Origin: Candidatus Saccharimonadia bacterium
GTDB lineage: Bacteria > Patescibacteriota > Saccharimonadia > UBA4664
DNA length: 64,000 nucleotides
Direction: 5' to 3'
Assembly (NCBI GenBank): GCA_036488585.1
Contig: DASXHH010000014.1
Coordinates: forward strand, 2,410-66,409
The position numbers were made by a program, and so were the translations under genes. This document shows positions 7,819-23,240 of this stretch, one piece after another. The notes beneath the pieces are model-generated. The model was not told the DNA's origin and searched no databases. It worked only from the letters and a program-made list of their open reading frames with translations. The stretch's first letter is position 1. The number at the start of each line of letters is the position of its first letter.

Positions 7819-8075
7819 TTGAGAGCGATTATTTTGCGCGCAAACGGGCTGAGCTGGGTTTGGACCGGGTTGACGACCTGGCACGCGTCCAGGCGGCTCT
7901 GGACGCGTGGTACCCGGGTCTGGCGCGGGCCAGACAGCTGCACCGCGGCACTTTACGGGTGGTGACGCCAAGTTCTAGTGTGGCGTCGGAGCTGCGGATG
8001 CGGCAGCTGGAGTTGGCTCAAATAGTGGGTTTGGAGGATGTGCGGATTGCTGTTTCGATTGGAAGTATCAGCTAG
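7815..8075 (+). CDS. DUF721-family protein (DciA-like), the conserved partner following recF
   Basis: 86-aa protein that overlaps the recF stop. Its position and size match the DUF721 gene of dnaA-dnaN-recF operons. Confidence 0.6.
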   Translation: MIESDYFARKRAELGLDRVDDLARVQAALDAWYPGLARARQLHRGTLRVVTPSSSVASELRMRQLELAQIVGLEDVRIAVSIGSIS

Positions 8076-8824
8076 ATACTGCCCGGAGTGCCAGCGGTAA
8101 ACAGCTGCTGACCCGATGGACTCGAAATTTTAATCTGAATATGCTCGGTGTCGTAATAGTTACCGACCACCGTATAGTTGGTGCCGTCGATATCGGCCGT
8201 GAAACTAACTGCCCACGGACTCCAGGCATCACTCGGGTTTAACCTGAAATGCCTGAGGCTACCGTCGTTGATGTCCACCGCTTTGGCCCAGGGGTCGAAC
8301 TGCGAGATGTAGGTCATGACGTTAATGACCTGGTCGTTTGATAGTCCGACATTGGTGAGGGCATCTTGGCCGGTGGTAGTAGGCGGAGCAAAGCTGGGTG
8401 TGAAGCTTATTTGCTGGTTTGTGAGTTGGTCTCCAGTGGTGGAGCTAATGCTTTTTACGGAAATGACATAGGCTTTCAGGCTGATAAGAGTGCGGGGCTT
8501 GAGCGTGAGCGTGAGAGTGTCGCCGCTAATACTGGTGGCGGATACAACCTCGGGGTTGGAAGCCACTGAGGCGCTGCCGGTGGCGAGGGAGCGGTTGAAT
8601 TTAATGGCGATGGCCGTCGTTTGAGTGGTGACGCTGGTTTGGCTCGGGGTGATGGTGGAGACGCTAAATTTGGCAGTAGCCGGAGTGGGTTGGGGCGGTT
8701 TTAGAAAGAACACCACGGCAAGGATGACAATGATAATTACGGCGAGGCCGGCCAGTAAACCAAGCCTACTGGGTTGGTTACTGTTTTGCGGGACGGGCGG
8801 GTAGCCGGGGTTTTGAGGGTCCAT
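8072..8824 (-). CDS. single-pass membrane protein with a Pro-rich N-terminus and an extracellular Ig-like/beta-rich domain (last gene of the T4SS-like operon)
   Basis: One TM helix (LLAGLAVIIIVILAVVFFL), then a Ser/Thr-rich beta region. No homology recognised. Confidence 0.5.
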   Translation of the reverse strand: MDPQNPGYPPVPQNSNQPSRLGLLAGLAVIIIVILAVVFFLKPPQPTPATAKFSVSTITPSQTSVTTQTTAIAIKFNRSLATGSASVASNPEVVSATSISGDTLTLTLKPRTLISLKAYVISVKSISSTTGDQLTNQQISFTPSFAPPTTTGQDALTNVGLSNDQVINVMTYISQFDPWAKAVDINDGSLRHFRLNPSDAWSPWAVSFTADIDGTNYTVVGNYYDTEHIQIKISSPSGQQLFTAGTPGSI

Positions 8825-8828
8825 GATG

Positions 8829-10253
8829 CTAATCTCCTGCTTCTATATCGAAGTTCACGTTGCTGGTGTCAATGATACCTTGCAGAGTGTCTTTGGCTGA
8901 TTGCTCGACTTCGCCTGGGTCGACGCCGGGATAGGCGACGACATCGATGGTAAGCGGGGCGGTGAAGTTGCGTAGACCAATCTGGTAGTTGGGGGTGCCG
9001 ATGGGCAGGACGTCTTGGAGGGCGCTAAGGGTGCTAGAGACGGGTTGACCGTGTAGGCTCACTCGGAAGACGGCCTGGGGACGGCCGTTGTTGCTATTCA
9101 TGACATCGGAGGCGGTGAGGTACACGTACGCCCGGTCGGCGCTGACCGAGACTTCCTGGATGGAACGTTGGCCGGGGAGGGTGGCAATGAGACTTGAGGT
9201 ACCCGAGGACAGATTGTGGGACCAGAGTTTGCCAGCAGTTGAGTAGTACAAGGTGTTGTCGTTTTGCCAATCGCCAACGCTAACGGGATAAGGTTGGGGG
9301 AGGACGGCAACCTGCTTGAGCGAGGAGTCGAATAGTTCGGGGTATGAGCCGACTGAGAGGCTGATGTAACTGCCACTGGGTGACCACGAGGTGACACCGG
9401 TGAGTTTGTAGCCAAACTTCTTGGTGGTGGTTTTGCCGTCGGTAGTGATGACGGTGGCGGTACCGGGTTGCTGGTCGGAGCCGGGATTAATTACGAGTAC
9501 CTTTCCAGTGGCGGCTACCAACAGGCCGTGAGGTGAAAAATCACTCGAGATTTGCGAGAACCCGCCTGATTCGGTGCCGCGATAAACGTTGGCGCCGAGG
9601 CCGAGGTAAATGGTTTTGTCGGGTGCGATGGCGTAGGCCAGTTCGGGTCCGGTAACCGGAGTGCGCAGGGTATGGAAACTATTGCCGTTAATTACGTATA
9701 GTTGGCCAGATTTGTCTTGCGCTAGGCCGTACGTGGTAGTGGCCCAGGCCGCGGAAGTGAAGTACTGGTTCCCAGGGACGGGCGCATCGTGGTTGTCGGT
9801 GCCGATGAACTCGACAGTGTTGGTGTCGCCTGCGATGTAAATCAGACGCGAGCTGTCGGCGGCGAGATTATGGACGCTCTTGTAGAGTACTGGCTCGGTG
9901 GTGGCGACGCTAGACGGTGCGAGATTGAGATCATGGCTGGAGAGCCAGCCCACATTGACTAGCTGGTTGGTGGTGGCGCTTCCCTGCTCTACCGACACGA
10001 TGTAACTTCCGGTTTTAAGCCTGACTGTGGTCTGGCCGGTGGCTTTTTGGGCGATGGTAGGGTTGCCGGTGCTTGCACCCTGCTGAGGCAGCGACGAGAT
10101 GGTAATGTTGGCGACGCTACTGCCGGTGGTAACGGTGACCGTGCCGGTGGTAACGAAGCTCATGATGAGGCTGCCGGCGATGAGAATTGCGGCCAGCGCG
10201 CCGATCCAGCGGACCAGTTTTGGTAGGATGGTTCGAAGTGTATCGGGTGACAT
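8829..10253 (-). CDS. membrane-anchored beta-propeller-like protein (TolB/WD40-like repeats)
   Basis: N-terminal TM anchor (IGALAAILIAGSLIMSFV). Repeated about 40-aa units carry G-x-Y/V-x-hydrophobic patterns (LIYIAGDTNTV..., LYVINGNSF..., IYLGLGANVY...). Confidence 0.5.
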   Translation of the reverse strand: MSPDTLRTILPKLVRWIGALAAILIAGSLIMSFVTTGTVTVTTGSSVANITISSLPQQGASTGNPTIAQKATGQTTVRLKTGSYIVSVEQGSATTNQLVNVGWLSSHDLNLAPSSVATTEPVLYKSVHNLAADSSRLIYIAGDTNTVEFIGTDNHDAPVPGNQYFTSAAWATTTYGLAQDKSGQLYVINGNSFHTLRTPVTGPELAYAIAPDKTIYLGLGANVYRGTESGGFSQISSDFSPHGLLVAATGKVLVINPGSDQQPGTATVITTDGKTTTKKFGYKLTGVTSWSPSGSYISLSVGSYPELFDSSLKQVAVLPQPYPVSVGDWQNDNTLYYSTAGKLWSHNLSSGTSSLIATLPGQRSIQEVSVSADRAYVYLTASDVMNSNNGRPQAVFRVSLHGQPVSSTLSALQDVLPIGTPNYQIGLRNFTAPLTIDVVAYPGVDPGEVEQSAKDTLQGIIDTSNVNFDIEAGD

Positions 10254-10256
10254 GAT

Positions 10257-12593
10257 TTACGGTGCTCCTGCGCAAGTGGCGTCGGTGGTTTTACCTTTAG
10301 TGATTTTTTGGGCCCAGGCGTAGAAGGCTAGCATCATGTTTTTGGCCGCGGCGGATGGCGCGCAGTTGCCATTGATGCCCAGAATAAGGGCTTCAGTGTT
10401 GGGCTGCACACCTTGCTTGGCACTGCCGTCGGCGACGCCCCATTCGATGTTGCCGACGATGTTGTTATAGGGATTGGAAACAGCGGTGGCGATGGTGTCA
10501 CCGGCTTTAACGGCTTGGCCGGTTTTAACGGTGGGTTTGACGCCCTCGGTGAAGTACAAGCTTTGGGAATTGGGCAAGCCGACGTTACAGGGAGCTTTTA
10601 TGACAACCATGAGGCTTCCTTGCCAGCCGGTGGTAGGGCCAGCGAACTGGACGGTACCGTTCATGGGAGAGACGATCTTGTTGGTAAAGGTGCCGTCGTA
10701 ACCCATGTCGAGCCGGTTGGGAGCCCAACCGTCGGGGAACGGATTGACCAGGGTACCCGAGCAGGTGGCGATGCCGGGGGCGGTGGCGCAGGTTTCGGTA
10801 CCGGTTTTGCTGGGGCTGGGCACGAAGGCGTCGAGGAGGGAGAGGGCGTTTTGAGTGTTAACCTTGAGAGCTTTGGCTTTAGCGATGGCCGAGTCGAGGG
10901 TGCCATCACTGGTGTACTTCTCGAGCGGGGCGTCGACGCCGGCGGCAAGCGCTTGGGCCAAGGCTTGGTCTGGTGGCAGGCCAACGCCGGTAGCGATGAG
11001 GTCGTCGGTCATGACAAGACCGCTAAAACCGTATTTGTTGCGGAGTAGGCTGACGGCGGCGGGGCTGGTGCTGGCGACGGTGCCAGGGGCGGTGAGGCCG
11101 GGGACGTGGGCGTTGTCTAGCATGACGCCACTACCGGTACCGGTTTGGGTCTGCTGCAGAAGCTGTGGGTATGGCAGTAGATCAGTGGCTTCTAACTGGC
11201 TGAGGGGGGGCGACGTAACGGATCCAGAGTCGGTATTACCCGTGGAACTACCGAGACCGGGGAAGTGCTTGAATACCGGATTGATACCGCCGGCGGTGAG
11301 GCCGTTGGCGAAGTCCTGGGCTTTAGTTGTAACGGTGACATAGTTGGTGCCGAAGGTACGGCCGGGCTGCTGATGGAAGTCGGAGTTGTTACCGGTGCCG
11401 ATGTCGACCACGGGAGCCAGGTCGGTGTTGATGCCCCAGCCGACCAGTTGCTTAGCGACATTTTGGGCAATGTTTGTCACCTGGGTATCGTTCATTGTGC
11501 TCATGACTCCGGCGTTGGGGAAGTCGGGGAACTGTGAAGAGTAGTTGTATTTATACCGCTTAAAGAGGCCCTCCTCGTCGCTGGCGGTAATGATGGGGTG
11601 ACCAGCGTCTACGGCGAGCGCGTCGAAGAACGGTTTGGTAAACCCGGCGGCGGCGGCGTCGGTGGTATTTAAGACGTATATACCGGCGGGCTTGTACTTT
11701 TTGAAGACGGCTTCGATGGCGGACTTGTTGGTGTTGGCGTCGAAGCCGAGGACGAAGGTGCCCGAGATGGCCTGGTCACCCGAGAGAGAGGTGAAGGTGC
11801 CGTTGGTGGCTGCCGCGGCATTGGGGCAGCAGGCATCGTTACCGCTACTCCCATTCGAACCACTCGAGCCAGTTGAGCCGCTAGAACCGCCTGAGCTGCC
11901 ACTGGAATTGGTGTCGCCGGCGTTCGGCCAGTTGTGGGCTTTGGCGTAGGCTAGGATTTGGTCGGCGTATGCGCCGCGGGGGCCAACGGTTGGTCCAGCC
12001 TTGGCATGTTCAAAATCATTTAGCCAGATGTTGGCAACCGTTTCGGCGGCATTGTTGTCGTTACCGGAGACGGCTTTAATCTTGGCAATGGTGTTGCCCC
12101 CCCCTGCCCACTGGCCGTTACCCTGGGCCTCCCAGTAGGCAATTTGAAGCTCTGATGCAATATCGTAGACGGGACCAGTAACGCCGGCGCCTTTGACGTC
12201 GAGCAACACTTTAGCACCCGGGGTCCACTGCACTAACCCCCAACCGCCGCCACCGGCATCGCTGGGGTTATTTGAGTTTCCACCGCCCTGGATGATGGTG
12301 GGGTCGAAGCCAGATTCCTGCTGGATGTTACCCATGATGCCTGCGGCTTCCGCACCGGTGAAGCCTTTGCCAACGAGCCAGTTCCAGATCTTCATTTCGT
12401 TGTCGCTGCCCTGGGCGGAGCTGGAGCTGGTATCTGGAGTGCTATTGCTGGCACAGCCATCATTCGGGTCGTAGAACATAGTGTCGCTGTGGACGGCGTA
12501 ATGATCGTGGGCGGCGGCGCCCAGGGTGGCTTCGGGCATAAGGACGCAAGCCAACATGGCGGTAATGCTGATTAGGCGGCGAAGCGTGTTCAC
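10257..12593 (-). CDS. secreted three-domain cell-wall hydrolase: lysozyme-like N-domain, GH3 (NagZ-like) domain, degenerate M23/LytM-like C-domain
   Basis: Signal peptide present. The N-domain motif AAGIMGNIQQESGF is muramidase-like. The middle domain has FKHFPGLG ... GFSGLVMTDDL, matching the GH3/NagZ KHFPGHG and FxGxVxSD signatures. The C-terminal beta domain has LytM-like topology but no His motif. Gly/Ser-rich linkers separate the domains. Confidence 0.6.
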   Translation of the reverse strand: MNTLRRLISITAMLACVLMPEATLGAAAHDHYAVHSDTMFYDPNDGCASNSTPDTSSSSAQGSDNEMKIWNWLVGKGFTGAEAAGIMGNIQQESGFDPTIIQGGGNSNNPSDAGGGGWGLVQWTPGAKVLLDVKGAGVTGPVYDIASELQIAYWEAQGNGQWAGGGNTIAKIKAVSGNDNNAAETVANIWLNDFEHAKAGPTVGPRGAYADQILAYAKAHNWPNAGDTNSSGSSGGSSGSTGSSGSNGSSGNDACCPNAAAATNGTFTSLSGDQAISGTFVLGFDANTNKSAIEAVFKKYKPAGIYVLNTTDAAAAGFTKPFFDALAVDAGHPIITASDEEGLFKRYKYNYSSQFPDFPNAGVMSTMNDTQVTNIAQNVAKQLVGWGINTDLAPVVDIGTGNNSDFHQQPGRTFGTNYVTVTTKAQDFANGLTAGGINPVFKHFPGLGSSTGNTDSGSVTSPPLSQLEATDLLPYPQLLQQTQTGTGSGVMLDNAHVPGLTAPGTVASTSPAAVSLLRNKYGFSGLVMTDDLIATGVGLPPDQALAQALAAGVDAPLEKYTSDGTLDSAIAKAKALKVNTQNALSLLDAFVPSPSKTGTETCATAPGIATCSGTLVNPFPDGWAPNRLDMGYDGTFTNKIVSPMNGTVQFAGPTTGWQGSLMVVIKAPCNVGLPNSQSLYFTEGVKPTVKTGQAVKAGDTIATAVSNPYNNIVGNIEWGVADGSAKQGVQPNTEALILGINGNCAPSAAAKNMMLAFYAWAQKITKGKTTDATCAGAP

Positions 12594-15160
12594 GGTGAGT
12601 TCAGTCCCCCATCATCGGCGTTGGTGAAATCTGAATTCATGGACTGGAGGTTGGCGAGGTCGAGGCGGCAAAGGTTGGCGTGGACTTGGTCGGGAGGTGT
12701 GTGGGGCGGATCGACAGCTGGGCAGTCGTCGAGGCTCATTTCGCCGAGCTTAACATCGAGCTTGCCGAGGCGCTGCTGGGCGCTTTGGTAAGCTTTAGCA
12801 AGGGCGGCGCCATTGTCGTTTTGACTGAGGTCTTGGTCGGTGTAGCCCCACTCGTTGAGGCCGTAATCGCGGCTGGGATCGTCGTAAGTGGCCTGGGCGC
12901 TGCCAACGCCGAGCAGCTGGAAGAGTGGCGCGAGCATTTGGTAAGGGCGAGCGCCAATGGCTGCCATGTAGTCGGCGCCGTCACTGAGTGCGCCGGCGGG
13001 CGTTACTGGGGCCTGCAGGGCCAGGACGTTTACGAGTGAGCGAGGGTTGTCGGCGGAGAAGAGGCGGTCACTGAGACTAAGCTTGCGGTTGGTAATGCCT
13101 TGTTCTGTGGCCACTTCTTGGTCGATCTGGACGGCTTGCGGGGCGCTAAGCATATGGCCGCCCATCCAGCGGGCGAAGTCCATACCAGCAACGGTGCCGC
13201 CAGCGTCGATTTGGTTAAACAGGTCGGCGCCGGTTTCGGTGCCATCCACGGCTGGTCCAACCAGTTTGATCAAGAGTTCAGCCAGGACTTGGCCAATGTG
13301 AGCCATTAGCCAGTCAATGGCGCTACCAAGAGGCGGGATGGCAATCTTAATGGCATCAACGATAAGGTTGAAGATGGCGCCGATGACACTATTGATGGCG
13401 CCCCAAATAATTCCTAGCGAGTGGTACCAGAGTTCCATAGCGTAATGGAAACCGATAGATCCAATGAGCGGATCGTAGGTTATAAATGACCGGTACCAGT
13501 CTTGGATGGGATGTTGGGTTTCATTGATGGAGCGGGAGTTGACCTCCTCGGTTACGCCGCCGTTGCCGTCGCTGACGCAGGTGAGTGACTGGTTGGAGGG
13601 GTCGCACTTGTCGGTGTTAGCGCCGATCTGGGCAGTGCCGTAGATATACTTGGAGGCTTCGGACTTTTCGGTGCCGTCGAGCATGCCCATGGTGGCATTG
13701 AATTCGTCGCCGGAGACGGTGTTACCGTCGTTGTGGTTGTCGTTGATGGTGCCCCAGAGGAAGAATTCGCCGGCGTATTGGACTTTGTGAATGTTTACGA
13801 GCACTTTATCTGCGGTGCCATACCAGAAGAAGTGATCGATACGGGAGGCGATGTCGATGGCGGAGACTAAGATAAGCGGACCCTTGGCGGCGGCGAAAGC
13901 GGTGGTGATACTCTGCGTGATTTCCGGAGCCAGGAACTTGGACAAAAGCCGGCTAAAAACGCGGCCGGGAAGGACGTGATCTGCTACTTTATTGTAGATG
14001 TCCTTGGCTTTTTGAGTCGCAGTGGTGTTGCTGTCGCTGGCGGCACTGGTGACATCGCCGTCGTGAGTGGTGCCGTTGGGGTCGGCGGTTACATCGCTGA
14101 CACCGGTGCGGTCTTGGGCATTGGGGTTGCCTTCGTCGGTGGGGCAGTCCGCGCCCCCACCAGTGACGGCACCGAGGGCACATTTAACGGCCGAGACAAG
14201 ACCGCTGGCAAAGCGGGCACCGGCTTTATCTATTCGTTCACTAGTAACTTCCTTCTCGGCGTCGGGGCCGGTCTTTTTACTAAAAAATTTCCAGTCCTTG
14301 ACGCTATAAAGAACCGTAGCCATTTTGCGTAGCGGATTTCGTTCGAGATACTGGAGGTTGTGAACCTGGGTGGTAAACTTGTCGCCTAGCGCGCCTACTA
14401 CTTTGGGATCGTCAATGGAGCCGATGTGAACATTGTCTTGGTAGAGGTGGATGGTGCCACCTTCTTTTTTGGCGACCAGGCGCTGCTGATTGGCCAGTTG
14501 TTTTTCGAGACTGTCCCCGCCGTCCGGGGGTTTGCGCCAATTGCGCATGAGTTGCTTTTCAGGCTCGCTGAAGTTGGAGATTTCTTTTTCGAAGGCGGCG
14601 TCGTCGTTGCCGACACTGGCTTTCAAATACGACTTGAGGAGCTGGCGAGGGCCAAATATGCGCTTCACCACATAGTGCTTAATACGGGCTTCAATCCGGT
14701 GCTTGAGAATGTTCTTCATCATGGACTCGAGTTTGAACGGCACCAGCGACATGAAGCCGCCGGCCATAATGCCGGAGACGATGACGGCGATGATTACATA
14801 GGTGAGGGGCTTCTTGCGCCGGCCAACGCCGGCGCTGAACTGGGACAAGCGGCTGGATGAGCTGGTGGTACCGCCGGACTTGGACGATCCCGGACCCGAG
14901 CCAGCGGTAGCGGTGGGGGCAGCGGTCTTGGTGCCACCAGATGCGTCCGCCGAGCTGCTATTCTGGTTGTTGTCGTCCTTGGGGCGGCTCTTGATTTTGC
15001 CTTCGGAGGCGTTTTCTACGGTGTTGCCGGCTTGGGCTGAAGAGGCGTTGGTAGGATCGTTGGCGTAGGCTTCAATTTGATCAAATTCAGCATCAGAAAC
15101 TTGCCCGTCCGAAACGCGCTCGTCACCCTGAAGGTCGCCGGGATTAGTCAGCGTTGCCAT
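12590..15160 (-). CDS. 856-aa single-pass membrane protein of the T4SS-like operon, function unknown
   Basis: Acidic, low-complexity N-terminus, one TM helix (LTYVIIAVIVSGIMAGGF) and a large extracytoplasmic region with a second hydrophobic stretch. No recognisable domain. Confidence 0.5.
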   Translation of the reverse strand: MATLTNPGDLQGDERVSDGQVSDAEFDQIEAYANDPTNASSAQAGNTVENASEGKIKSRPKDDNNQNSSSADASGGTKTAAPTATAGSGPGSSKSGGTTSSSSRLSQFSAGVGRRKKPLTYVIIAVIVSGIMAGGFMSLVPFKLESMMKNILKHRIEARIKHYVVKRIFGPRQLLKSYLKASVGNDDAAFEKEISNFSEPEKQLMRNWRKPPDGGDSLEKQLANQQRLVAKKEGGTIHLYQDNVHIGSIDDPKVVGALGDKFTTQVHNLQYLERNPLRKMATVLYSVKDWKFFSKKTGPDAEKEVTSERIDKAGARFASGLVSAVKCALGAVTGGGADCPTDEGNPNAQDRTGVSDVTADPNGTTHDGDVTSAASDSNTTATQKAKDIYNKVADHVLPGRVFSRLLSKFLAPEITQSITTAFAAAKGPLILVSAIDIASRIDHFFWYGTADKVLVNIHKVQYAGEFFLWGTINDNHNDGNTVSGDEFNATMGMLDGTEKSEASKYIYGTAQIGANTDKCDPSNQSLTCVSDGNGGVTEEVNSRSINETQHPIQDWYRSFITYDPLIGSIGFHYAMELWYHSLGIIWGAINSVIGAIFNLIVDAIKIAIPPLGSAIDWLMAHIGQVLAELLIKLVGPAVDGTETGADLFNQIDAGGTVAGMDFARWMGGHMLSAPQAVQIDQEVATEQGITNRKLSLSDRLFSADNPRSLVNVLALQAPVTPAGALSDGADYMAAIGARPYQMLAPLFQLLGVGSAQATYDDPSRDYGLNEWGYTDQDLSQNDNGAALAKAYQSAQQRLGKLDVKLGEMSLDDCPAVDPPHTPPDQVHANLCRLDLANLQSMNSDFTNADDGGLNSP

Positions 15161-15232
15161 GTCACCTCATAACGCTCATGGTTATTGTAAGTTTACATGG
15201 CTCTAAGTGGCCAGTAAAGCGCGTTGGGCGGA

Positions 15233-17113: not shown

Positions 17114-17128
17114 TGATTACTCCCATAG

Positions 17129-17863: not shown

Positions 17864-18668
17864 TGGTTGGCTCCACCGTTTGAGGGTTTGCGGATGGCAC
17901 CAGGCGGGTGGCCTGGGCCGCAATCTGCGACACACTCAAGTCGTCGTTTTGAGTCGCTAGCTTAAGTATATCGTTGGGCTGGGATGGTGTCACGCCGGTT
18001 ATGCTTGCTTGGGCGGTGGCGAGTGCAGCTGGGGCTTTGGCGCGCGGATCGGTCATTTGCTGCACAGCCTCTTCGCGGACGTCTTCGGCCGCTTCACGCA
18101 GTAGCTCGGCTAGGTTTTGGGCCGATGGGCTATTCTTCATGTCGAGCATGTCGGTCTTGGGCATGTCGGGGGCAAGTGGCGCCGGCGGCGGGGCAACCAT
18201 GCGGTCTTCGTGGGCGGTGGTGGGCATGATGGCTTGGTTTTCGGGCTGGGGCGGTTCGTTCCAACCGCGGGAGTCGATGAGGGTGGAGAGCTTCTCGAGC
18301 TCGCTAATGACCTCGGCGGGGTTGCGCTGGGTAATTTCGGCCGCGTGCTTGGTGGGCTCGATGTGGAAGACTTCTGCGACAGGATCTTTTACCCAGACTC
18401 GGCGACGAGCAGCAGCAAAGAAGCCGACCATGGCGATTAGGAGCTGCTCGAAGTTTTGGCCGTCGCGGGTGTAGAAGGCTAGGAGCAGAAAGAGCATGGT
18501 GGGCGGGAATCCAACCACGGCCAGCAGGGCCGGCACGGCGCGTAAGATGGCAAAGCACAAAATACCCCAGCCGACGCCAATAAGCGCATAGATGAACTGG
18601 CGGAATGTGAGGGGGCCGAGAATTTTATCTTCGGCCTCAACGTTTTGCGGGACTTTATATTGGCCCAC
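17853..18668 (-). CDS. VirB3/PrgI-like small T4SS membrane protein with a C-terminal extension
   Basis: The N-terminal motif ILGPLTFRQFIYALIGVGWGIL plus two TM helices is typical of VirB3-like proteins that precede VirB4. The Ala/Pro-rich C-terminal tail is unusual. Confidence 0.45.
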   Translation of the reverse strand: MGQYKVPQNVEAEDKILGPLTFRQFIYALIGVGWGILCFAILRAVPALLAVVGFPPTMLFLLLAFYTRDGQNFEQLLIAMVGFFAAARRRVWVKDPVAEVFHIEPTKHAAEITQRNPAEVISELEKLSTLIDSRGWNEPPQPENQAIMPTTAHEDRMVAPPPAPLAPDMPKTDMLDMKNSPSAQNLAELLREAAEDVREEAVQQMTDPRAKAPAALATAQASITGVTPSQPNDILKLATQNDDLSVSQIAAQATRLVPSANPQTVEPTNAS

Positions 18669-18774
18669 TGGGATCGCTTCTCCTAAGTAGTCCTCAATCG
18701 CACACAGAGTGGTGCTATATAAAGCTTACGCTAAACTGAGACGCGCTCCAAGAGGGGGAGCGCCTTGTAGCGGA

Positions 18775-21207
18775 CTAGAAGGCTTTGCCGTTGATATCGA
18801 TATGTTTTTTGAGCTCGGTTATCTGGACCGGGGTAAAACCGATATCAGTGGCCGAGCCCCACACGTTATTGGCTATGCGCTTGGTGGTCTTGGGGTCAAG
18901 CTTTGCCCAATCTTGAGCTGACTGCGAGATTTTCCCGTAAGAGTCGGCTAACTCTGCACGGTGCGTGTCGAGCACTGGCTGTATGCTTACTGTTTTGCCG
19001 TCTTTGTTAACATAGGTGGTTTGGCCCGCAGTCAGCTTTGCCTGCAGCATTTGGGCACGATCCAGGTCCTTCGCGCGAGTTTCCTTGTCGAATCCCAACC
19101 TGTGAGAAGGACCACGACCACTGAAGAAGTCCATCTGCTTGTCCGCTTGCCAGTCGGCTTGCGTGAAACCTGCGTCGGCACCGAGCGCTACGTCTCGGGC
19201 TTTTGAAGCGGCACCAGGAACACTCTGGATAGCGTTCCGGACTTCCTTGCTTGAGATTGTACCCGCCTTAAGTGCCGCTCGGGTACGATCCCAAGAGTAG
19301 TCTTGGGCGGAGGTGTATTGGATGGCGGCTTCCCGGGCGATTTGGCCACTATAATGGCCTTTGGGGCCAAAATCCGTTTGACCCTCAACGACTCTTTGCC
19401 AATCTTCAGAGCCCATACCTTTGCGTTGGCCTTCGGCAAGAACTGCATCGCGGGCTTTTTTCTGCTCGGCGTGGATGGTAGACTGCACGCCCTCTTGTAC
19501 TCGCTCGTCGTAGGGTCTGTAGGAGCCATTTGCTAGTGATTCAGTGAGACTTGCTTGGGCGGCCTTGGCGACCTCTTCATCATGAAGGGCTTTAGCAGCT
19601 GTACCAGCCATGGCTCGCTGCTGAACGATACTTGGTCCACGGCCGGGGAAGGCGCCGCTGAAGCCGCCGCGAGTGGCGGCTACACCTCTGAAAAACCCGG
19701 CGGTTTTTCGCTCTACGATGTCGCCATTCTTGTCCTTTTTAAATTGGAGTGCTCTGCCAAGCCGGGTGGTAGGTGCGCCCATGTAGCTGGCTGCGGCCTT
19801 TTCTTGGCGGCGCTGGCTACGATTTTTATCGGATTGGCTGCCTTTGCCAAAGCGCTTGTTCATGGAGCCGCCGAAGCCGCCGATACCCTTGGCGCCGGCC
19901 TTCATAGCGCCGCCAGCCCAGGAGAAGGTCCACGGGACGGCGCCGAGTGGCAAGTATAGGCCGACTAGGGCGATGATAGGGACGGCGGCCTTCTGGAAGT
20001 CGTTGGCGGCGCCACCACCGTTGAAACCGGCGCCGGCGGTGAGCGCAAAGATGCGACCGGCTTCGAACAGTAGCATGATGAGCGGATACATCAGGATTAG
20101 CTTAAAGAGGTTTTGCCACCACTGGGTGAACCATTTTTCAGTGTTGGGCAGAATCCAGGCCATGATGGCAAACGGGCTGAGTACAACCAGAGTAATGATG
20201 AGGATTTGTCGCAGCACCAGGGTAAAGAAGGTGGCTAGAACGGCGATGAGGATGGTGATGAGGATAGCTAGACCAATCTCAGAGACGGCGCCTTTGAGGG
20301 CGATGGCGAAGACGGCGCCGGCTGCAGCGTAGAAGATCGAGCTAAGCGGGAAGGTGAAATCGATGTAGGGTGTGGGGATGATTTTATCCATTAAAGTAAT
20401 GAGGCCTTGGCCGAGAATGTTGCCGATGTCGATCATGGCGGCGCAGATATACCATGACAGGGGCATGAGGATGGCGCCGGCTACTAAGTGAGGCAGCGTC
20501 TTTTTAATGGTGTAGTTGTCGAAGCCGAGAGCGGTGCCAAAGATAATGGCGAAGAAGATGAGGATGAGGAAGACGGCTGCGACGTTGCGGAAATTTTGCC
20601 AGATGGTGTAGGCGGGGTTGTCAATGCTTTTGCCCTGGTTATCTATGACTTTAGTGGTGAGGGGTTGGACATGGAGGAAGGGCGCGATGATGTAATCGCG
20701 AATGCCATCGATAACACTGATGGCGGCGCTCATAATGGCGCAGTTTAGCCAGGTGAGGGTGCCGGAGTCGCAAAGATTGGTGGGATCCGTGTTGTTGTTG
20801 GCGGGTGGTGTTGTGGGTTGGGGGCCGCTGCCGCCTCCCCCGCTGCCGGGGGCGACGTTTTTGGGGTTGGCGACAGTGACGGTGCCACCCCCACCGCAGG
20901 TGGTATTAATAGTGGCGCCGTAGCTACCGTTGGCGTTCTTGGCACCCAGGGTTAGGGTGAGGGTGTTGGCCTGGGTTTGTTTAATATCGCAAAAACCACC
21001 AGAGGCTTGGTAGGTTGAACCGGTGGTGTGACCGAAAGAGCGGGAAACACCGGCTGAACCCGTGTCGGTGCAGGTGATGGTGTTGGCGTCGGCGAATTGG
21101 CAGTTGGTGTAGGCGGCTTCGGCTATACTGGGTGCGAGTAGATAAGACAAAAGGGCGATCGCGTTCGCAAACGCCACTAAAGCAATCGCAAGCCACCTAC
21201 GCTTCAT
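18775..21207 (-). CDS. VirB6/TrbL-like polytopic T4SS membrane protein with a long cytoplasmic C-terminal domain
   Basis: Signal peptide, a Cys-containing extracellular segment, at least 6 TM helices with Trp-rich loops (NLFKLILMYPLIMLLFEAGRIF...), then about 400 aa that look soluble. It is the first gene of the operon and is transcribed from a leaderless TATACT promoter. Confidence 0.5.
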   Translation of the reverse strand: MKRRWLAIALVAFANAIALLSYLLAPSIAEAAYTNCQFADANTITCTDTGSAGVSRSFGHTTGSTYQASGGFCDIKQTQANTLTLTLGAKNANGSYGATINTTCGGGGTVTVANPKNVAPGSGGGGSGPQPTTPPANNNTDPTNLCDSGTLTWLNCAIMSAAISVIDGIRDYIIAPFLHVQPLTTKVIDNQGKSIDNPAYTIWQNFRNVAAVFLILIFFAIIFGTALGFDNYTIKKTLPHLVAGAILMPLSWYICAAMIDIGNILGQGLITLMDKIIPTPYIDFTFPLSSIFYAAAGAVFAIALKGAVSEIGLAILITILIAVLATFFTLVLRQILIITLVVLSPFAIMAWILPNTEKWFTQWWQNLFKLILMYPLIMLLFEAGRIFALTAGAGFNGGGAANDFQKAAVPIIALVGLYLPLGAVPWTFSWAGGAMKAGAKGIGGFGGSMNKRFGKGSQSDKNRSQRRQEKAAASYMGAPTTRLGRALQFKKDKNGDIVERKTAGFFRGVAATRGGFSGAFPGRGPSIVQQRAMAGTAAKALHDEEVAKAAQASLTESLANGSYRPYDERVQEGVQSTIHAEQKKARDAVLAEGQRKGMGSEDWQRVVEGQTDFGPKGHYSGQIAREAAIQYTSAQDYSWDRTRAALKAGTISSKEVRNAIQSVPGAASKARDVALGADAGFTQADWQADKQMDFFSGRGPSHRLGFDKETRAKDLDRAQMLQAKLTAGQTTYVNKDGKTVSIQPVLDTHRAELADSYGKISQSAQDWAKLDPKTTKRIANNVWGSATDIGFTPVQITELKKHIDINGKAF

Positions 21208-21247
21208 GCCTGAAGTATAGCATTAGCATTTTAATAACGTAAGCACT

Positions 21248-21277
21248 TTGACTTGGTCGGGCGCTCACCTGTACAAT
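21248..21277 (+). promoter_or_regulatory. promoter for the pilin array (TTGACT-18 nt-TACAAT), probably leaderless
   Basis: TTGACT at 21248-21253 and TACAAT at 21272-21277. The ATG at 21285 lies about 7 nt downstream of the -10. The revcomp of the same 68-nt region carries TATACT 6 nt before the VirB6-like ATG. Confidence 0.45.
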
Positions 21278-21284
21278 GCGGCCA

Positions 21285-21746
21285 ATGAAACGTCTGTTGG
21301 TCAGCTTGGGGGTAGCAGTGGCGGTGGCGACTTGTACGCTACCAGTGGTCGTGAGCGCGTCGAACACGTTGCCTGGAAGTGGTGGCGGTACTAGTACTAG
21401 TGGAGGCGGTAGTTCGCTGACCGATCCGAACTCAGGTGGATGTGCGGGTGGTGTACAGATAGCACTACCGATTTTTTCCAACAACACCTGTGTGCAGAAC
21501 AGTCAGGGTAACGGAAGCGCCATTGTCGTGTATTTGAAGGAAGTGCTGCAGCTGCTTTCCGGGATCGTGGGCATTACTATCATTACTTTGATAATTTGGG
21601 CTGGGATTCGGTATATAACCTCGTTGGGTGACCCGAGCATAGTGAAGGACGCCAAATCGAGGTTAACGAATGCCATAACGGCCCTGGTTTTATTCCTGAT
21701 GATGTTTGCGATTTTGCAATTCTTGGTACCGGGAGGGCTGTTGTAG
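21285..21746 (+). CDS. VirB2/TrbC-like T4SS pilin paralog 1
   Basis: Signal peptide (MKRLLVSLGVAVAVATC), a Gly/Ser-rich region, then two hydrophobic helices separated by a short charged loop (GIRYITSLGDPSIVKDAKSRLTNAI). Confidence 0.55.
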   Translation: MKRLLVSLGVAVAVATCTLPVVVSASNTLPGSGGGTSTSGGGSSLTDPNSGGCAGGVQIALPIFSNNTCVQNSQGNGSAIVVYLKEVLQLLSGIVGITIITLIIWAGIRYITSLGDPSIVKDAKSRLTNAITALVLFLMMFAILQFLVPGGLL

Positions 21747-22094
21747 ATGTCTTTGTTGCCACATTTGTACCTGGCATCGAGCGCGTGTGGAACTCACACC
21801 GGCGTGGCTCCGAGCCTGTACGACGGGTTGAAATGCGATGCGAACGGCAACATCACGCTAACGCGGGTGGTGGACGCGGTGGTGATAATTGCGAACATCG
21901 CGCGAATTTTGATTTGGCTGGCGGGAGCGCTGGCCGTGATCTTTGTGATCATCGGCGGCGTTTACTACATAGTGTCGGCGGGTGATCCGGGTCGGGTCAA
22001 GAAGGCCAAGGACATCCTGACCAATGCGATTATTGGTATCGTGCTTACGGTTAGCGCTTATGCTGTGGTAACGTTTATTGCAAAGGGATTTTAG
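21747..22094 (+). CDS. VirB2/TrbC-like pilin paralog 2
   Basis: Same two-helix core with a GDP loop (GGVYYIVSAGDPGRVKKAKDILTNAIIGIV). Confidence 0.5.
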   Translation: MSLLPHLYLASSACGTHTGVAPSLYDGLKCDANGNITLTRVVDAVVIIANIARILIWLAGALAVIFVIIGGVYYIVSAGDPGRVKKAKDILTNAIIGIVLTVSAYAVVTFIAKGF

Positions 22095-22099
22095 AGAGA

Positions 22100-22408
22100 A
22101 TGCTTGAACATATGTTGAAGCTAGCAGCCAACCCGTACAACATTCCGGCTAATTCCATTGGTGTACCGACTTCGACGGCGACGGTGGGTCAAGGGCTGAC
22201 AAATGCAGTACAGATCATTATGACGGTGGTCGGCATGCTGGCAGTTGTGTTTATTCTGGTGAGTGGAGTGCAGATGGTGTCGTCGAATGGTGATCCCAAG
22301 CGGTTTGCCCAGGGTCGGCAAACGCTGCTGTATGCGGTTGTGGGGCTGGCGGTGGCCATTGGCGCCTACGCGATTGTGACGTTTGTTTCGGGTGTTCCCC
22401 ATCGTTAA
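22100..22408 (+). CDS. VirB2/TrbC-like pilin paralog 3
   Basis: Core reads LVSGVQMVSSNGDPKRFAQGRQTLLYAVVGLAVAI. Confidence 0.5.
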   Translation: MLEHMLKLAANPYNIPANSIGVPTSTATVGQGLTNAVQIIMTVVGMLAVVFILVSGVQMVSSNGDPKRFAQGRQTLLYAVVGLAVAIGAYAIVTFVSGVPHR

Positions 22409-22423
22409 TTAAGGAGTGGTGTA

Positions 22424-22735
22424 ATGTTCGGTAAATTCTTGGCTGACGCGACAAGTGCGATTAACACTGGAGCCACACAGGCTTGCGGTACTTCGTGTAA
22501 CACGGGCACGACCGTGGGCGGCTTGTTTGCAGGCGTAGCCAACGCATTAATATTCTTGGTGGGCGCCGTTTCGGTGATCATGATCATTATTGGTGGTCTG
22601 CGGTATGTGATGTCCAACGGCGACCCAAAGCAAACTGAGTCGGCTAAAAACACCATCTTGTACTCGGTAATTGGTATTGTGGTGGCGATTGCATCGTTTG
22701 CGATCGTGAGTTTTGTGACCACTCACATCAAGTAG
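22424..22735 (+). CDS. VirB2/TrbC-like pilin paralog 4
   Basis: Core reads NALIFLVGAVSVIMIIIGGLRYVMSNGDPKQTESAKNTILYSVIGIVVAIASFAIVSFV. Confidence 0.55.
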   Translation: MFGKFLADATSAINTGATQACGTSCNTGTTVGGLFAGVANALIFLVGAVSVIMIIIGGLRYVMSNGDPKQTESAKNTILYSVIGIVVAIASFAIVSFVTTHIK

Positions 22736-22814
22736 TTTGCCAAGCCAATACGCTTATGGTAATGTTCGGGTAAAGCTGCACTATAATAAAAGTATTAAGG
22801 AGTAATAACTTCCA

Positions 22815-23240
22815 ATGCGCACAGCAAACCTAGGCAAAAAAGTTGCCGCCGTCGCTCAGGCACTGGTGCTCGCCCTTGGATTTGGGGTCGCGAGCTTTGC
22901 CATGGCTGGTCCGGCGCTAGCGGCCAACAACTGTGATCCGAACACGTTAACGATCGATAACGGCGCGCAGTGTGCCAAGGCTGATAGCGCAAAGGACAAC
23001 CTGTTTGCTCCGAATGGTGTGTTCTCGGTGGTGGCCAATACCCTGATCTTCCTGGTCGGCGCCGTAGCGGTGATTTTCCTGATCGTCGGTGGTTTGCGCT
23101 ACGTGGTCTCGAACGGTGACCCGAAGAACGTTGAGGCGGCCAAGAACACCATCCTCTACGCTATCGTCGGTATCGTGGTAGCGGTGATCTCGTTCGCCCT
23201 GGTCCAATTCGTGATCAATGCCTTGAATAAAGCGTCGTAA
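22815..23240 (+). CDS. VirB2/TrbC-like pilin paralog 5 (nearly identical core to paralog 4)
   Basis: Core reads NTLIFLVGAVAVIFLIVGGLRYVVSNGDPKNVEAAKNTILYAIVGIVVAVISFALVQFV. A classic signal peptide with A-x-A precedes it. Confidence 0.55.
   Translation: MRTANLGKKVAAVAQALVLALGFGVASFAMAGPALAANNCDPNTLTIDNGAQCAKADSAKDNLFAPNGVFSVVANTLIFLVGAVAVIFLIVGGLRYVVSNGDPKNVEAAKNTILYAIVGIVVAVISFALVQFVINALNKAS

What the first reader, a model, noticed from the sequence alone, without database searches (positions are those of the whole stretch)
8072..23240. Chromosomally embedded T4SS-like locus without coupling protein or relaxase, sitting directly beside the replication origin
Eight co-directional minus-strand genes run from 21207 down to 8072. 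They are a VirB6-like polytopic protein, a VirB3-like protein, a split VirB4 ATPase, an 856-aa single-pass giant, a three-domain cell-wall hydrolase, a membrane-anchored beta-propeller and an Ig-like membrane protein. A divergent array of five VirB2/TrbC-like pilins completes the locus. No VirD4-type coupling ATPase, relaxase, VirB11, integrase or transposase is visible anywhere in the 64 kb. The locus starts about 100 nt after the dnaA-dnaN-recF-DUF721 block and has the same GC and codon style as housekeeping genes. That pattern argues for a fixed, non-conjugative secretion or DNA-uptake/cell-contact apparatus rather than a recently acquired ICE. The gene order and the accessory proteins (giant, propeller, Ig protein) do not match any canonical Gram-negative or Gram-positive T4SS layout I know.
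Basis: partly seen in the sequence, partly recalled or inferred. Interest (0 to 1): 0.7.

Follow-up and report, generated by a model that had tools for sequence, protein, structure and literature searches.

The report
Known Saccharibacteria type IV secretion locus

Summary
Window 8072-23240 carries eight co-directional minus-strand genes and five divergent VirB2-like pilin genes, right beside rnpA-dnaA-dnaN-recF.

HMM support:
- VirB4 passes the NCBIfam CD1110-family cutoff (366.7 bits against 325).
- A separate TrsD-like protein matches the VirB4 N-terminal domain.
- PrgI/VirB3 scores 55 bits.
- All five pilins exceed the PF18895 cutoff.
- VirB6 support is weak but consistent.

No second secretion ATPase, relaxase, integrase or att-like repeat lies in the 64 kb.

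It is not new. The organism is a Saccharimonadia (Patescibacteria) MAG. The locus matches, almost gene for gene, the T4SS cluster of Southlakia epibionticum (published as SEML1_0006-0019, plus two flanking genes), most of whose genes were called essential by Tn-seq (Wang 2023). Quinonero-Coronel 2025 already reported the missing relaxase, the pilin arrays, TrsD and the proximity to dnaA.

My additions:
- 51 of 56 related species keep the origin adjacency.
- VirB4 is more conserved than DnaA in 29 of 29 species.
- Codon usage matches same-strand housekeeping genes (r = 0.98).
- The 856-aa protein belongs to a large family found after virB4 in 52 of 54 loci. Its confident model has no fold relative, and most relatives carry swappable C-terminal lytic modules.

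Most likely function: a host-piercing pilus conduit. The cargo and its direction are unknown.

The parts
18775..21207 (-). Extended VirB6-like polytopic membrane protein, 810 aa. It has an N-terminal signal or anchor and an exposed Cys/Gly-rich domain, about 5-6 TM helices (residues 204-429), and a C-terminal hydrophilic domain of about 380 aa.
   Evidence: TrbL 1.8e-3, below cutoff. CD3337/EF1877 1.9e-5. Precomputed PF19590 TrbL_3. Best PDB hit is TrwI at E = 0.1. TM scan. Same position as SEML1_0011.
17853..18668 (-). PrgI/VirB3-like protein, 271 aa, with an N-terminal hydrophobic stretch (residues ~24-67, probably two TM helices) and a long C-terminal extension.
   Evidence: PF12666 PrgI at 9.3e-15, 55.4 bits against a cutoff of 27. 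TM scan. Found in 70 of 81 related loci.
17129..17863 (-). TrsD-like protein, 244 aa. It is the VirB4 N-terminal domain encoded as a separate gene. Its start overlaps the end of the PrgI gene by 11 nt.
   Evidence: NCBIfam TrsD 6.7e-10. It also aligns to VirB4_plasma positions 102-233 and CD1110 positions 11-118. Precomputed PF26593 TraC-like. Found in 80 of 81 related loci.
15233..17113 (-). VirB4 ATPase, 626 aa, with Walker A AKSGAGKS at residue 265 and Walker B MLIVDE at residue 482. It lacks the N-terminal domain.
   Evidence: 366.7 bits against a cutoff of 325, profile positions 181-730 of 752; 4AG5 at 1.2e-49. It is 65-88% identical to the VirB4 of most of the 80 related genomes returned, nearly all labelled Saccharibacteria/Saccharimonadia.
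12590..15160 (-). Conserved 'giant' scaffold protein, 856 aa. Residues 1-115 are disordered, a TM helix lies at about 117-143, and a large all-alpha body follows. It has four family-invariant cysteines and a conserved hydrophobic hairpin at about 570-633. This copy lacks the C-terminal enzymatic tail that most relatives carry.
   Evidence: No Pfam or NCBIfam hit. The family has 1036 representatives. It follows virB4 in 52 of 54 loci. AF2 model pLDDT 77, pTM 0.79. No fold relative was found. Tails analysed.
10257..12593 (-). Secreted three-module cell-wall hydrolase, 778 aa (760 aa if it starts at 12539). Modules: a phage-tail-type lysozyme, a GH3 NagZ/LpqI-like N-acetylglucosaminidase domain, and a probably degenerate M23/LytM-like domain.
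   Evidence: One search matches LpqI 6gfv at 3.2e-28 and phi29 gp13 at 3.7e-9. One search covers the M23-like part. An N-terminal hydrophobic segment was found.
8829..10253 (-). N-terminally membrane-anchored 474-aa protein, possibly a beta-propeller. It belongs to a narrow, fast-evolving family.
   Evidence: SBBP 21.6 bits against a cutoff of 20.5. Only 14 homologues, 44-100% identical. Relatives at the same position give sub-threshold propeller hits. No solved relative.
8072..8824 (-). N-terminally membrane-anchored 250-aa protein of unknown fold, the last gene of the operon. It has the same length and position as SEML1_0004, which was annotated as prealbumin-like plus BT0923-like.
   Evidence: No family or PDB hit. 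TM at residues 16-48. Positional correspondence. Only 4 relatives among the loci.
21208..21284 (.). Divergent intergenic region of 77 nt between the VirB6-like gene and the pilin array. A sigma-70-like site (TTGACT, 18 nt spacer, TACAAT) ends 7 nt before the likely pilin-1 ATG.
   Evidence: This is a consensus match only.
21285..21746 (+). VirB2-like pilin 1, 153 aa, with a signal peptide, a long variable exposed segment and two TM helices.
   Evidence: PF18895 7.6e-9. Gene start. TM scan and alignment.
21747..22094 (+). VirB2-like pilin 2, 115 aa.
   Evidence: PF18895 1.9e-11..
22100..22408 (+). VirB2-like pilin 3, 102 aa.
   Evidence: PF18895 4.1e-10 and TrbC 3.6e-4..
22424..22735 (+). VirB2-like pilin 4, 103 aa.
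   Evidence: PF18895 2.6e-10. 53% identical to pilin 5.
22815..23240 (+). VirB2-like pilin 5, 141 aa, with a signal peptide.
   Evidence: PF18895 7.2e-10..

Best explanation
The locus is the vertically inherited chromosomal type IV secretion system of class Saccharimonadia (Patescibacteria/CPR). It derives from the Gram-positive MPF_FATA conjugation machinery and corresponds to the T4SS cluster of Southlakia epibionticum, published as SEML1_0006-0019; SEML1_0004 and 0005 match by position.

Shown here:
- The core consists of VirB4, a separately encoded VirB4 N-terminal domain (TrsD-like), PrgI/VirB3 and VirB6.
- Five divergent VirB2-like pilins are encoded alongside.
- A distal block encodes envelope-exposed proteins: the conserved giant scaffold, a multi-module wall hydrolase, and two small anchored proteins.
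- The 64-kb window holds no coupling ATPase, VirB11, relaxase or integrase.
- The locus is fixed next to dnaA-dnaN-recF across the class.

Inferred mechanism:
- VirB4, held at the membrane by TrsD, VirB3 and VirB6, extracts pilins from the membrane and polymerises them. The result is a tube of about 9 nm that leaves the epibiont and reaches or pierces the host cell.
- The Sec-exported hydrolase and the giant (whose relatives carry peptidase, lipase or EEP tails) open the epibiont's own wall, the host envelope, or both, at that site.
- The tube then serves host exploitation. Because no cytoplasmic substrate receptor (T4CP) is encoded with it, I favour a conduit or anchor for acquiring host material, or for delivering Sec-exported enzymes, over conjugation-like export of cytoplasmic substrates.

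The confidence given is for the identity. The pilus-conduit mechanism I put at about 0.5. The direction of transport is open.
For: Identity:
- Family hits.
- The nearest VirB4 relatives carry Saccharimonadia or other Patescibacteria names wherever a source names them, or are unnamed.
- The gene order matches SEML1_0004-0020 position by position, including Hsp20 and tRNA-Ser after the pilins. Two Se genes have no counterpart here.

Fixed and vertically inherited:
- 51 of 56 species keep the origin genes 4.8-8.7 kb from virB4.
- Median identity is 67% for VirB4, against 50% for DnaA and 47% for DnaN.
- RSCU correlation is 0.98 with same-strand housekeeping genes, against 0.09 between strands.
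- No att-like repeats and no second T4SS ATPase.

Published evidence:
- Most of the matching Se genes were called essential by Tn-seq (SEML1_0012 was not), and no coupling protein or relaxase was recognised in the cluster (PMC10633639).
- The Patescibacteria VirB4 clade nests within MPF_FATA. TrsD, pilin arrays of 2-11 genes and proximity to dnaA are described there (PMC12102498).
- Cryo-ET of the Saccharibacterium Mycosynbacter amalyticus shows a tube or 'lance' 8.6-9 nm wide and 60-70 nm long, running from the parasite's membrane into the host (PMC11880426).

Envelope breaching:
- The genes after the giant in 53 species carry a shuffled set of lytic modules: Phage_lysozyme2 in 38 of 81 proteins, M23 in 14, GDSL lipase in 9, plus amidases, NlpC/P60, CHAP and SLT.
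- Relatives of the giant carry DD-peptidase-like, M23, EEP or GDSL tails.
Against: - No experiment here or in the literature shows a pilus made of these pilins, its cargo or its direction. A 2024 perspective calls the role 'completely unknown' (PMC11665869).
- The link between the cryo-ET tube and this T4SS is not established.
- VirB6 support is below the curated cutoffs.
- I could not search the rest of the genome. VirD4-like genes are reported in most Patescibacteria genomes far from virB4 (PMC12102498), so a coupling protein acting in trans is not excluded. The one in S. epibionticum was, however, non-essential.
- I built no VirB4 tree.
Confidence: 0.9

Rival explanations
1. It is an effector-export machine. 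The T4SS translocates cytoplasmic protein effectors into the host bacterium, as pathogen VirB/D4 or Dot/Icm systems do, possibly using a VirD4-like ATPase encoded elsewhere in the genome.
For: This has been the prevailing speculation in the literature (PMC10633639, PMC11665869). VirD4-like genes exist in most Patescibacteria genomes (PMC12102498). The VirB4 Walker motifs are intact.
Against: No T4CP lies in the 64 kb. The distal T4CP homologue of S. epibionticum is non-essential, while most of the T4SS genes are essential (PMC12102498). No candidate effector genes with known T4SS signals were identified.
Confidence: 0.25
2. It is an adhesion or contact organelle only. The VirB2-type pilus and the variable surface proteins mediate host recognition, and nothing passes through.
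For: The five pilins are divergent (19-53% identity). The accessory surface proteins evolve fast. Both fit adaptation to host surfaces.
Against: Type IV pili already provide adhesion and motility in Saccharibacteria (PMC12206443, PMC10633639). The dense set of lytic enzymes in the locus suggests penetration rather than mere binding.
Confidence: 0.1
3. It is a DNA-uptake (competence) T4SS, like Helicobacter ComB.
For: A weak CedB/CedD similarity comes from the shared VirB4 P-loop domain. The organism class cannot make nucleotides (PMC10633639).
Against: In S. epibionticum, transformation requires ComEC, and a comEC mutant is viable although the T4SS is essential (as summarised in PMC12857230). 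ComB systems carry VirB7-10 homologues, and none were found here.
Confidence: 0.05
4. It is an integrated conjugative element, or a decaying remnant of one, whose mobility genes lie just outside the window.
For: The core genes derive from conjugation machinery. A tRNA-Ser gene lies 2.4 kb beyond the pilins.
Against: The same arrangement, including Hsp20 and tRNA-Ser, recurs in distant species. Codon usage has fully adapted to the strand. VirB4 is more conserved than DnaA. There are no flanking repeats. The left flank is the replication-origin gene block itself.
Confidence: 0.02

Closest known systems
T4SS cluster of Candidatus Southlakia epibionticum ML1, published as SEML1_0006-0019, plus the two flanking genes SEML1_0004 and 0005 (Wang et al. 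2023, Cell; PMC10633639)
   Same: Both start directly after dnaA-dnaN-recF. The minus-strand order is the same: a 250-aa anchored protein, a small exported protein, a multi-domain lysozyme/peptidase, a giant protein, VirB4, a TrsD-like protein, PrgI and VirB6. Divergent VirB2-like pilins follow, then Hsp20 and tRNA-Ser.
   Different: - The window has one VirB6 paralogue, not two. It lacks the non-essential NTF2-like SEML1_0012.
- It has five pilins, not six.
- Its giant (856 aa against 1113 aa) lacks the C-terminal DD-peptidase domain.
- Its hydrolase has GH3 and an M23-like domain, in place of a second lysozyme and a cysteine peptidase.
- The second-last gene encodes a 474-aa putative propeller, not a 211-aa PEGA protein.
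- A DciA-like gene and an MptA/B-like glycosyltransferase gene are additional.

The accessory proteins were compared by position and length only, because I did not hold the Se sequences.
Patescibacteria-clade T4SS as catalogued by Quinonero-Coronel et al. 2025 (Microb Genom; PMC12102498)
   Same: An MPF_FATA-type VirB4 sits with adjacent TrsD, VirB3/PrgI, VirB6 and a tandem VirB2 pilin array. No relaxase or T4CP lies near virB4. The locus is chromosomal and near dnaA/dnaN/rnpA. Pilin identities of 19-53% match their reported mean of 25% and maximum of 54%.
   Different: Nothing essential differs. That paper does not describe the giant family or its modular tails: the words GDSL, lipase and polymorphic are absent from its text.
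Gram-positive conjugative T4SSs (MPF_FATA): pCF10 PrgH-PrgI-PrgJ-PcfC-PrgK, pGO1/pIP501 TrsC-TrsD-TrsE, CTn2 CD1110 family (the gene orders are from my own knowledge)
   Same: The order VirB6-VirB3-VirB4-hydrolase is as in pCF10. A separate TrsD precedes VirB4 as in pGO1. VirB4 passes the CD1110-family cutoff. The wall hydrolase is large and multi-domain, like PrgK, TraG or CwlT.
   Different: The locus has no coupling protein, relaxase, oriT region or recognisable VirB8-like protein. It does have VirB2-like pilins, which Gram-positive systems otherwise lack (PMC12857230). It also has the giant scaffold, and it is chromosomal and fixed.
T4CP-less effector T4SSs: Bordetella Ptl and Brucella VirB
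   Same: They work without a dedicated coupling protein (PMC12857230). Substrates cross the cytoplasmic membrane by Sec in the Ptl case (my own knowledge). That is a possible analogy for the Sec-exported enzymes here.
   Different: Those are diderm MPF_T systems with a VirB7-VirB9-VirB10 core complex and VirB11. None of these is present here.

Membership tests
Patescibacteria-clade T4SS (MPF_FATA-derived) | VirB4 ATPase of Gram-positive (MPF_FATA) type | tested here: met
   NCBIfam conju_CD1110 at 366.7 bits against a cutoff of 325. Best PDB relative is Thermoanaerobacter VirB4 4AG5 at 1.2e-49.
Patescibacteria-clade T4SS (MPF_FATA-derived) | VirB4 belongs to the monophyletic Patescibacteria clade | tested here: inconclusive
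   I built no tree. Nearest-neighbour evidence only: the top 120 of more than 8000 homologues are 80-98% identical, and every name a source gives is Saccharimonadia, Saccharibacteria or another Patescibacteria label. The best 80 genome hits carry Saccharimonadia or other Patescibacteria titles, or are unnamed.
Patescibacteria-clade T4SS (MPF_FATA-derived) | TrsD-like protein (VirB4 N-terminal domain homologue) next to virB4 | tested here: met
   TrsD at 6.7e-10, aligned to the N-terminal parts of VirB4 profiles. Found adjacent in 80 of 81 loci.
Patescibacteria-clade T4SS (MPF_FATA-derived) | VirB3/PrgI and VirB6 membrane components near virB4 | tested here: met
   PrgI is above its cutoff. VirB6 rests on several weak, concordant lines only.
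Patescibacteria-clade T4SS (MPF_FATA-derived) | Tandem array of divergent VirB2-like pilins in the cluster | tested here: met
   Five genes, all above the PF18895 cutoff, with 19-53% pairwise identity.
Patescibacteria-clade T4SS (MPF_FATA-derived) | No relaxase and no T4CP near virB4; chromosomal, near dnaA/dnaN | tested here: met
   for the 64 kb. dnaA lies at 1254-2708 and recF at 6748-7818. The rest of the genome could not be searched.
Patescibacteria-clade T4SS (MPF_FATA-derived) | Required for epibiotic growth | not testable with these tools
   Known only from Tn-seq in S. epibionticum (PMC10633639).
Conjugative element (ICE or plasmid MPF_FATA T4SS) | Relaxase (MOB) and coupling protein (VirD4/TcpA) associated with the T4SS | tested here: not met
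   No such family was hit in any ORF of 100 aa or more that I scanned. The only P-loop ORFs are DnaA, RecF, VirB4, an ABC ATPase and a chance match in DnaG. The test is limited to 64 kb.
Conjugative element (ICE or plasmid MPF_FATA T4SS) | Integrase with attL/attR, or signs of recent acquisition | tested here: not met
   No integrase. No flanking direct repeats. Codon usage is identical to same-strand housekeeping genes. Synteny is conserved.
Gram-negative VirB/D4 (MPF_T) T4SS | Outer-membrane core complex VirB7/VirB9/VirB10 and VirB11 ATPase | tested here: not met
   No Pfam or NCBIfam hit to these families in any locus protein. No further ATPase.

The most novel reading that the evidence does not exclude
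The 856-aa protein is a Saccharimonadia-wide T4SS component that the T4SS papers I read do not describe. It is a membrane-anchored all-alpha scaffold with no detectable fold relative, and its C-terminus carries interchangeable envelope-attacking modules: DD-peptidase-like, M23, EEP with M23, or GDSL lipase. In this genome the tail is absent, and the lytic modules sit in the next gene instead. Together with the shuffled lytic genes that follow it, the scaffold would be the host-envelope 'drill' or tip of the pilus apparatus. One candidate is the barbed tip of the lance seen by cryo-ET. Its payload would be tuned to the host's wall chemistry and would help set host range.
Probability: 0.3. Interest if true: 0.6.

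Novelty: already known. Interest (0 to 1): 0.3.

Why it matters
The system matters in itself. It is described as the first T4SS shown to be essential for the survival of the bacterium that carries it (PMC12857230). It is also the only known Gram-positive-type T4SS with VirB2-like pilins, and it is probably central to how ultrasmall Patescibacteria exploit their hosts. Its cargo is still unknown.

This window adds no new kind of system. It is one more syntenic copy from an environmental, high-GC Saccharimonadia MAG. What the re-analysis adds:
- Quantitative evidence for strict vertical inheritance at the origin.
- The observation that the distal half of the locus is a hypervariable set of wall- and lipid-degrading modules, built around a conserved scaffold of unknown fold. 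This gives concrete targets for experiments on host penetration and host range.

Tried and rejected
- AF2 on the giant with only 8 homologues failed (pLDDT 37). A 77-sequence alignment gave a usable model.
- The afdb50 library was unavailable.
- PDB sequence searches for the 474-aa and 250-aa proteins found nothing.
- The local Pfam scan did not reproduce the precomputed TrbL_3, TraC-like and MptA_B hits listed for the same proteins on the source contig. I take this to be a difference in library version.
- DnaA boxes are not enriched in the window: 9 found against 8.65 expected. Three do cluster at 1185-1272, just upstream of and into the start of dnaA. The origin position is therefore inferred from gene order and GC skew.
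- A pairwise BLAST of the M23-like segment was uninformative. A profile built from the M23 tails was needed.
- The ICE reading was rejected, as set out under rival explanations.
- A pooled RSCU comparison of T4SS and housekeeping genes gave r = 0.64. That figure was misleading until the genes were split by strand.

Full report
**What is in the sequence**

The window is a chromosomal segment with about 57% GC and uniformly positive GC skew. It begins with rnpA (231-572, minus strand) and continues with dnaA (1254-2708), dnaN (4161-5336), recF (6748-7818) and a DciA/DUF721-like gene (7815-8075). The rest of the 64 kb is housekeeping: valS, tsaD, a Sua5 homologue, a Mur ligase, a FemAB-family gene, groEL, two sigma-70 genes, dnaG, a MacB-type ABC pair and five tRNA genes.

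They form a tight operon. Gaps are 3-4 nt or the genes overlap. The TrsD-like gene overlaps the PrgI gene by 11 nt, and the giant overlaps the hydrolase gene by 4 nt. The last gene overlaps the convergent DciA-like gene by 4 nt, so there is no 100-nt spacer.

**Assignments**

- The 626-aa protein is a VirB4. It matches P-loop_TraG at 8.6e-27, and AAA_10 and DUF87 above their cutoffs. It scores 366.7 bits against NCBIfam conju_CD1110, whose cutoff is 325. It matches Thermoanaerobacter VirB4 (4AG5) at 1.2e-49. Walker A (AKSGAGKS) and Walker B (MLIVDE) are present.
- This VirB4 aligns only to positions 181-730 of the 752-position CD1110 profile. The missing N-terminal part is supplied by the upstream 244-aa protein. 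That protein matches TrsD (6.7e-10) and the N-terminal regions of two VirB4 profiles. The 'split VirB4' is therefore real. It is the TrsD plus VirB4 arrangement known from pGO1-type Gram-positive systems.
- The 271-aa protein is a PrgI/VirB3 family member, at 55.4 bits against a cutoff of 27.
- The 810-aa polytopic protein is VirB6-like on weak but concordant evidence. TrbL scores 18.5 bits, below its cutoff. CD3337/EF1877 gives 1.9e-5. The source contig carries a precomputed TrbL_3 hit. TrwI is the top PDB hit at E = 0.1.
- The 778-aa protein combines three modules. The first is a phage-tail lysozyme, matched to phi29 gp13. The second is a GH3 NagZ/LpqI-like domain. The third is an M23-like domain that appears to have lost at least some of its zinc-binding histidines (and reading of the sequence).
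- All five plus-strand genes exceed the PF18895 T4SS_pilin cutoff. Each ends in two TM helices (the two longer ones also have a signal peptide), four share an SxGDP loop (SLGDP in pilin 1), and they are 19-53% identical to one another.
- The 856-aa, 474-aa and 250-aa proteins match no curated family. The exception is a marginal SBBP propeller-repeat hit for the 474-aa protein.

**Absences**

Among stop-to-stop ORFs of 150 aa or more, only DnaA, RecF, VirB4, one ABC ATPase and a chance site in DnaG contain a Walker A motif. The 64 kb therefore holds no VirD4-type or VirB11-type ATPase. No relaxase, integrase or transposase family was hit. No att-like direct repeats flank the locus.

**Whose genome, and is the locus fixed?**

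VirB4 has more than 8000 homologues. The top 120 are 80-98% identical, and every name a source gives them is Candidatus Saccharimonadia, Saccharibacteria or another Patescibacteria label. The giant and the 474-aa protein are found exactly in an NCBI TPA Saccharimonadia MAG, and VirB4 on a JGI metagenome contig.

A scan of one genome per species returned 80 loci, nearly all labelled Saccharibacteria or Saccharimonadia. With the source contig added, 81 loci were compared:

- The TrsD-like gene was detected in 80 of the 81, PrgI in 70, and VirB6 in 57. Where the flank allowed, pilins and Hsp20 appeared on the far side.
- Of 56 species with at least 9.5 kb downstream of virB4, 51 have recF, dnaN or dnaA at 4.8-8.7 kb.
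- In 29 species where all the genes could be compared, VirB4 is 67% identical at the median. DnaA is 50%, DnaN 47% and RecF 40%. VirB4 beats DnaA and DnaN in all 29.

Codon usage in this genome is dominated by strand. The RSCU correlation between plus-strand and minus-strand housekeeping genes is only 0.09. The minus-strand T4SS genes correlate at 0.98 with minus-strand housekeeping genes, and the plus-strand pilins at 0.86 with plus-strand housekeeping genes.

The locus has therefore sat in this orientation for a very long time. It is not a recent ICE. The eight-gene operon lies on the lagging strand and so runs head-on to replication.

**It is already known**

McLean et al. 2020 reported T4SS genes in Saccharibacteria (PMC7427843, listed).

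Wang et al. 2023 (PMC10633639) described an 'apparent T4SS (SEML1_0006-0019)' in Southlakia epibionticum. They called it essential by Tn-seq and noted that it most closely resembles Gram-positive conjugative systems. They also noted essential pilins and no recognisable coupling protein or relaxase.

Their supplementary tables show dnaA, dnaN and recF as genes 1-3. Then follow a 250-aa protein, a small exported protein, a lysozyme/peptidase, a 1113-aa protein, VirB4, an 882-bp gene, PrgI, VirB6, an NTF2-like gene, a second VirB6, six pilins, Hsp20 and tRNA-Ser. Most of these genes were called essential; SEML1_0012 was not.

Quinonero-Coronel et al. 2025 (PMC12102498) surveyed 3,035 genomes. They found:

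- A monophyletic Patescibacteria VirB4 clade nested within MPF_FATA.
- TrsD as the most abundant associated component.
- VirB3 and VirB6 homologues, and tandem VirB2 arrays of 2-11 genes, with mean identity 25% and maximum 54%.
- Almost no relaxases.
- VirD4-like genes in most genomes, but rarely near virB4.
- Enrichment of dnaA, dnaN, rnpA and rpmH near virB4, which they interpreted as a gene-dosage effect.

[quoted passage not shown] A 2024 perspective calls their role 'completely unknown' (PMC11665869).

**What I can add: the distal half of the locus**

The 856-aa protein evolves fast. A word-indexed search found only 8 homologues. A full profile search found 1036 representative clusters, 625 of them at E of 1e-10 or better, with lengths of about 800-1600 aa.

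In the related loci, the ORF directly after virB4 is 789-1504 aa long in all but two. An iterated profile recognises the family in 52 of 54 loci, almost always in that ORF.

With a 77-sequence alignment, AF2 gives a confident model (pLDDT 77, pTM 0.79). The model shows:

- A disordered N-terminus and one TM helix at about residues 117-143.
- A large all-alpha body with four family-invariant cysteines. I read these as an argument for an extracytoplasmic location.
- A hydrophobic helical hairpin at about residues 570-633, which lies within the best-conserved part of the family.

The model has no significant fold relative in PDB or BFVD.

Of 153 representatives, 110 extend at least 120 aa beyond the shared scaffold. 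The tails are modular:

- 41 have a domain with an HxxGxAxD...HxH motif in the tails inspected, like the Hedgehog/DD-peptidase domain annotated in SEML1_0007.
- 29 have an M23 domain, and 14 of those also carry one or two EEP domains.
- 11 have a GDSL lipase domain.
- One has a beta-lactamase-like domain.
- 32 are unassigned.

The window's copy ends exactly where the scaffold ends.

The remaining downstream proteins in 53 species carry a shuffled repertoire of modules. Phage_lysozyme2 occurs in 38 of 81 proteins, M23 in 14, GDSL in 9, C39-like in 8, Amidase_3 in 7 and NlpC/P60 in 7. SLT, CHAP, Amidase_2 and glucosaminidase also occur. GH3 occurs in only 3.

Relatives of the 474-aa protein at the same position give only sub-threshold beta-propeller hits. 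The words GDSL, lipase and polymorphic do not occur in PMC12102498. I therefore did not find this modularity described in the T4SS papers I read, but I cannot exclude that it is published elsewhere.

**How it most likely works**

Shown:
- The parts list.
- Its fixation at the origin.
- The absence of mobility and coupling genes nearby.
- Essentiality in a relative (from the literature).

Inferred, from established T4SS biology and my own knowledge:
- VirB4, docked through TrsD, VirB3 and VirB6, extracts VirB2-like pilins from the membrane. It polymerises them into a tube.
- The Sec-exported hydrolase and the giant locally open the wall.
- Cryo-ET of the Saccharibacterium Mycosynbacter amalyticus shows a tube or lance 8.6-9 nm wide and 60-70 nm long. 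It runs from the parasite's membrane into the host (PMC11880426). By my own knowledge, that diameter fits a VirB2-type pilus.
- A 2026 preprint on another Patescibacterium proposes similar tubes as T4SS pili in the context of feeding on host RNA.

No coupling protein is encoded with the machine, and the distal one in S. epibionticum is dispensable. I therefore favour a host-piercing conduit or anchor. It would serve to acquire host material or to deliver Sec-exported enzymes (about 0.5). Classical export of cytoplasmic effectors comes second (about 0.25). An adhesion-only role (0.1), competence (0.05) and an ICE (0.02) follow.

**Verdict**

'Fixed, not an ICE' is right. 'Matches no known layout' is wrong, and 'without coupling protein' holds only locally. 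The system is already known. The interest of this instance is low to moderate, with a modest possibly new angle in the giant scaffold family and its swappable lytic modules.

Noticed in passing
window 1-64000: Codon usage is almost entirely set by the strand. Plus-strand genes have G at 47% and C at 22% of third positions. Minus-strand genes have C at 52-56% and G at 18%. The RSCU correlation between housekeeping genes on the two strands is only 0.09. GC skew is about +0.2 throughout. This is an unusually strong replication-strand mutational bias.
   Followed up: partly
window 8072-21207: The eight-gene, 13-kb T4SS operon lies on the lagging strand right next to the origin, so it is transcribed head-on to replication. 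S. epibionticum has the same orientation. The published gene-dosage explanation does not address this.
   Followed up: no
window 12590-15160 and proteins P0121-P0275: The giant family has a conserved scaffold of about 800 aa with no fold relative. Its C-terminal tails are interchangeable: DD-peptidase-like, M23, EEP with M23, GDSL lipase, or beta-lactamase-like. The window's copy has no tail.
   Followed up: yes
window 23305-24606: A polytopic MptA/MptB-like GT-C mannosyltransferase gene sits between the pilin array and Hsp20 (TIGR03459 at 2.6e-10; precomputed PF26314). It was found at this position only in the source contig and in none of the 80 other loci. It looks like a lineage-specific insertion, probably for an envelope glycan and not part of the T4SS.
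   Followed up: partly
window 2797-3931: Two adjacent minus-strand ORFs (200 aa and 175 aa) lie between dnaA and dnaN. Each consists of Clp_N repeat domains without an ATPase. This is an unusual interruption of the dnaA-dnaN pair.
   Followed up: no
window 21248-21285: A sigma-70-like promoter (TTGACT, 18 nt spacer, TACAAT) ends 7 nt before the likely pilin-1 start codon at 21285. This suggests a leaderless or nearly leaderless pilin transcript. It is a consensus match only.
   Followed up: no
window 10404-10736: The M23-like module of the hydrolase aligns to the M23 tails of giant-family proteins (30.4 bits). It has Thr where the conserved His of the YxH motif lies, and the alignment stops before the HxH motif. 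It may be a degenerate, non-catalytic LytM-type domain. By eye, the GH3 domain reads DSG where NagZ enzymes have the DSH dyad.
   Followed up: partly
window 5499-6566: An ORF of up to 355 aa (called as 179 aa on the source contig) lies between dnaN and recF. It has no family hit and was seen in no other related locus.
   Followed up: no
window 48810-49847 and 61278-62384: Two full-length primary-type sigma-70 genes (regions 1.2, 2, 3 and 4) lie within 13 kb. One of them is next to dnaG.
   Followed up: no
window 25600-28738: Four tRNA genes cluster within 3.2 kb: Ser-GCT, Ser-TGA, Arg-GCG and Ser-CGA. They are interspersed with a GH130 gene. The first tRNA-Ser keeps its position after Hsp20 as in S. 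epibionticum, so it is not an integration scar.
   Followed up: partly
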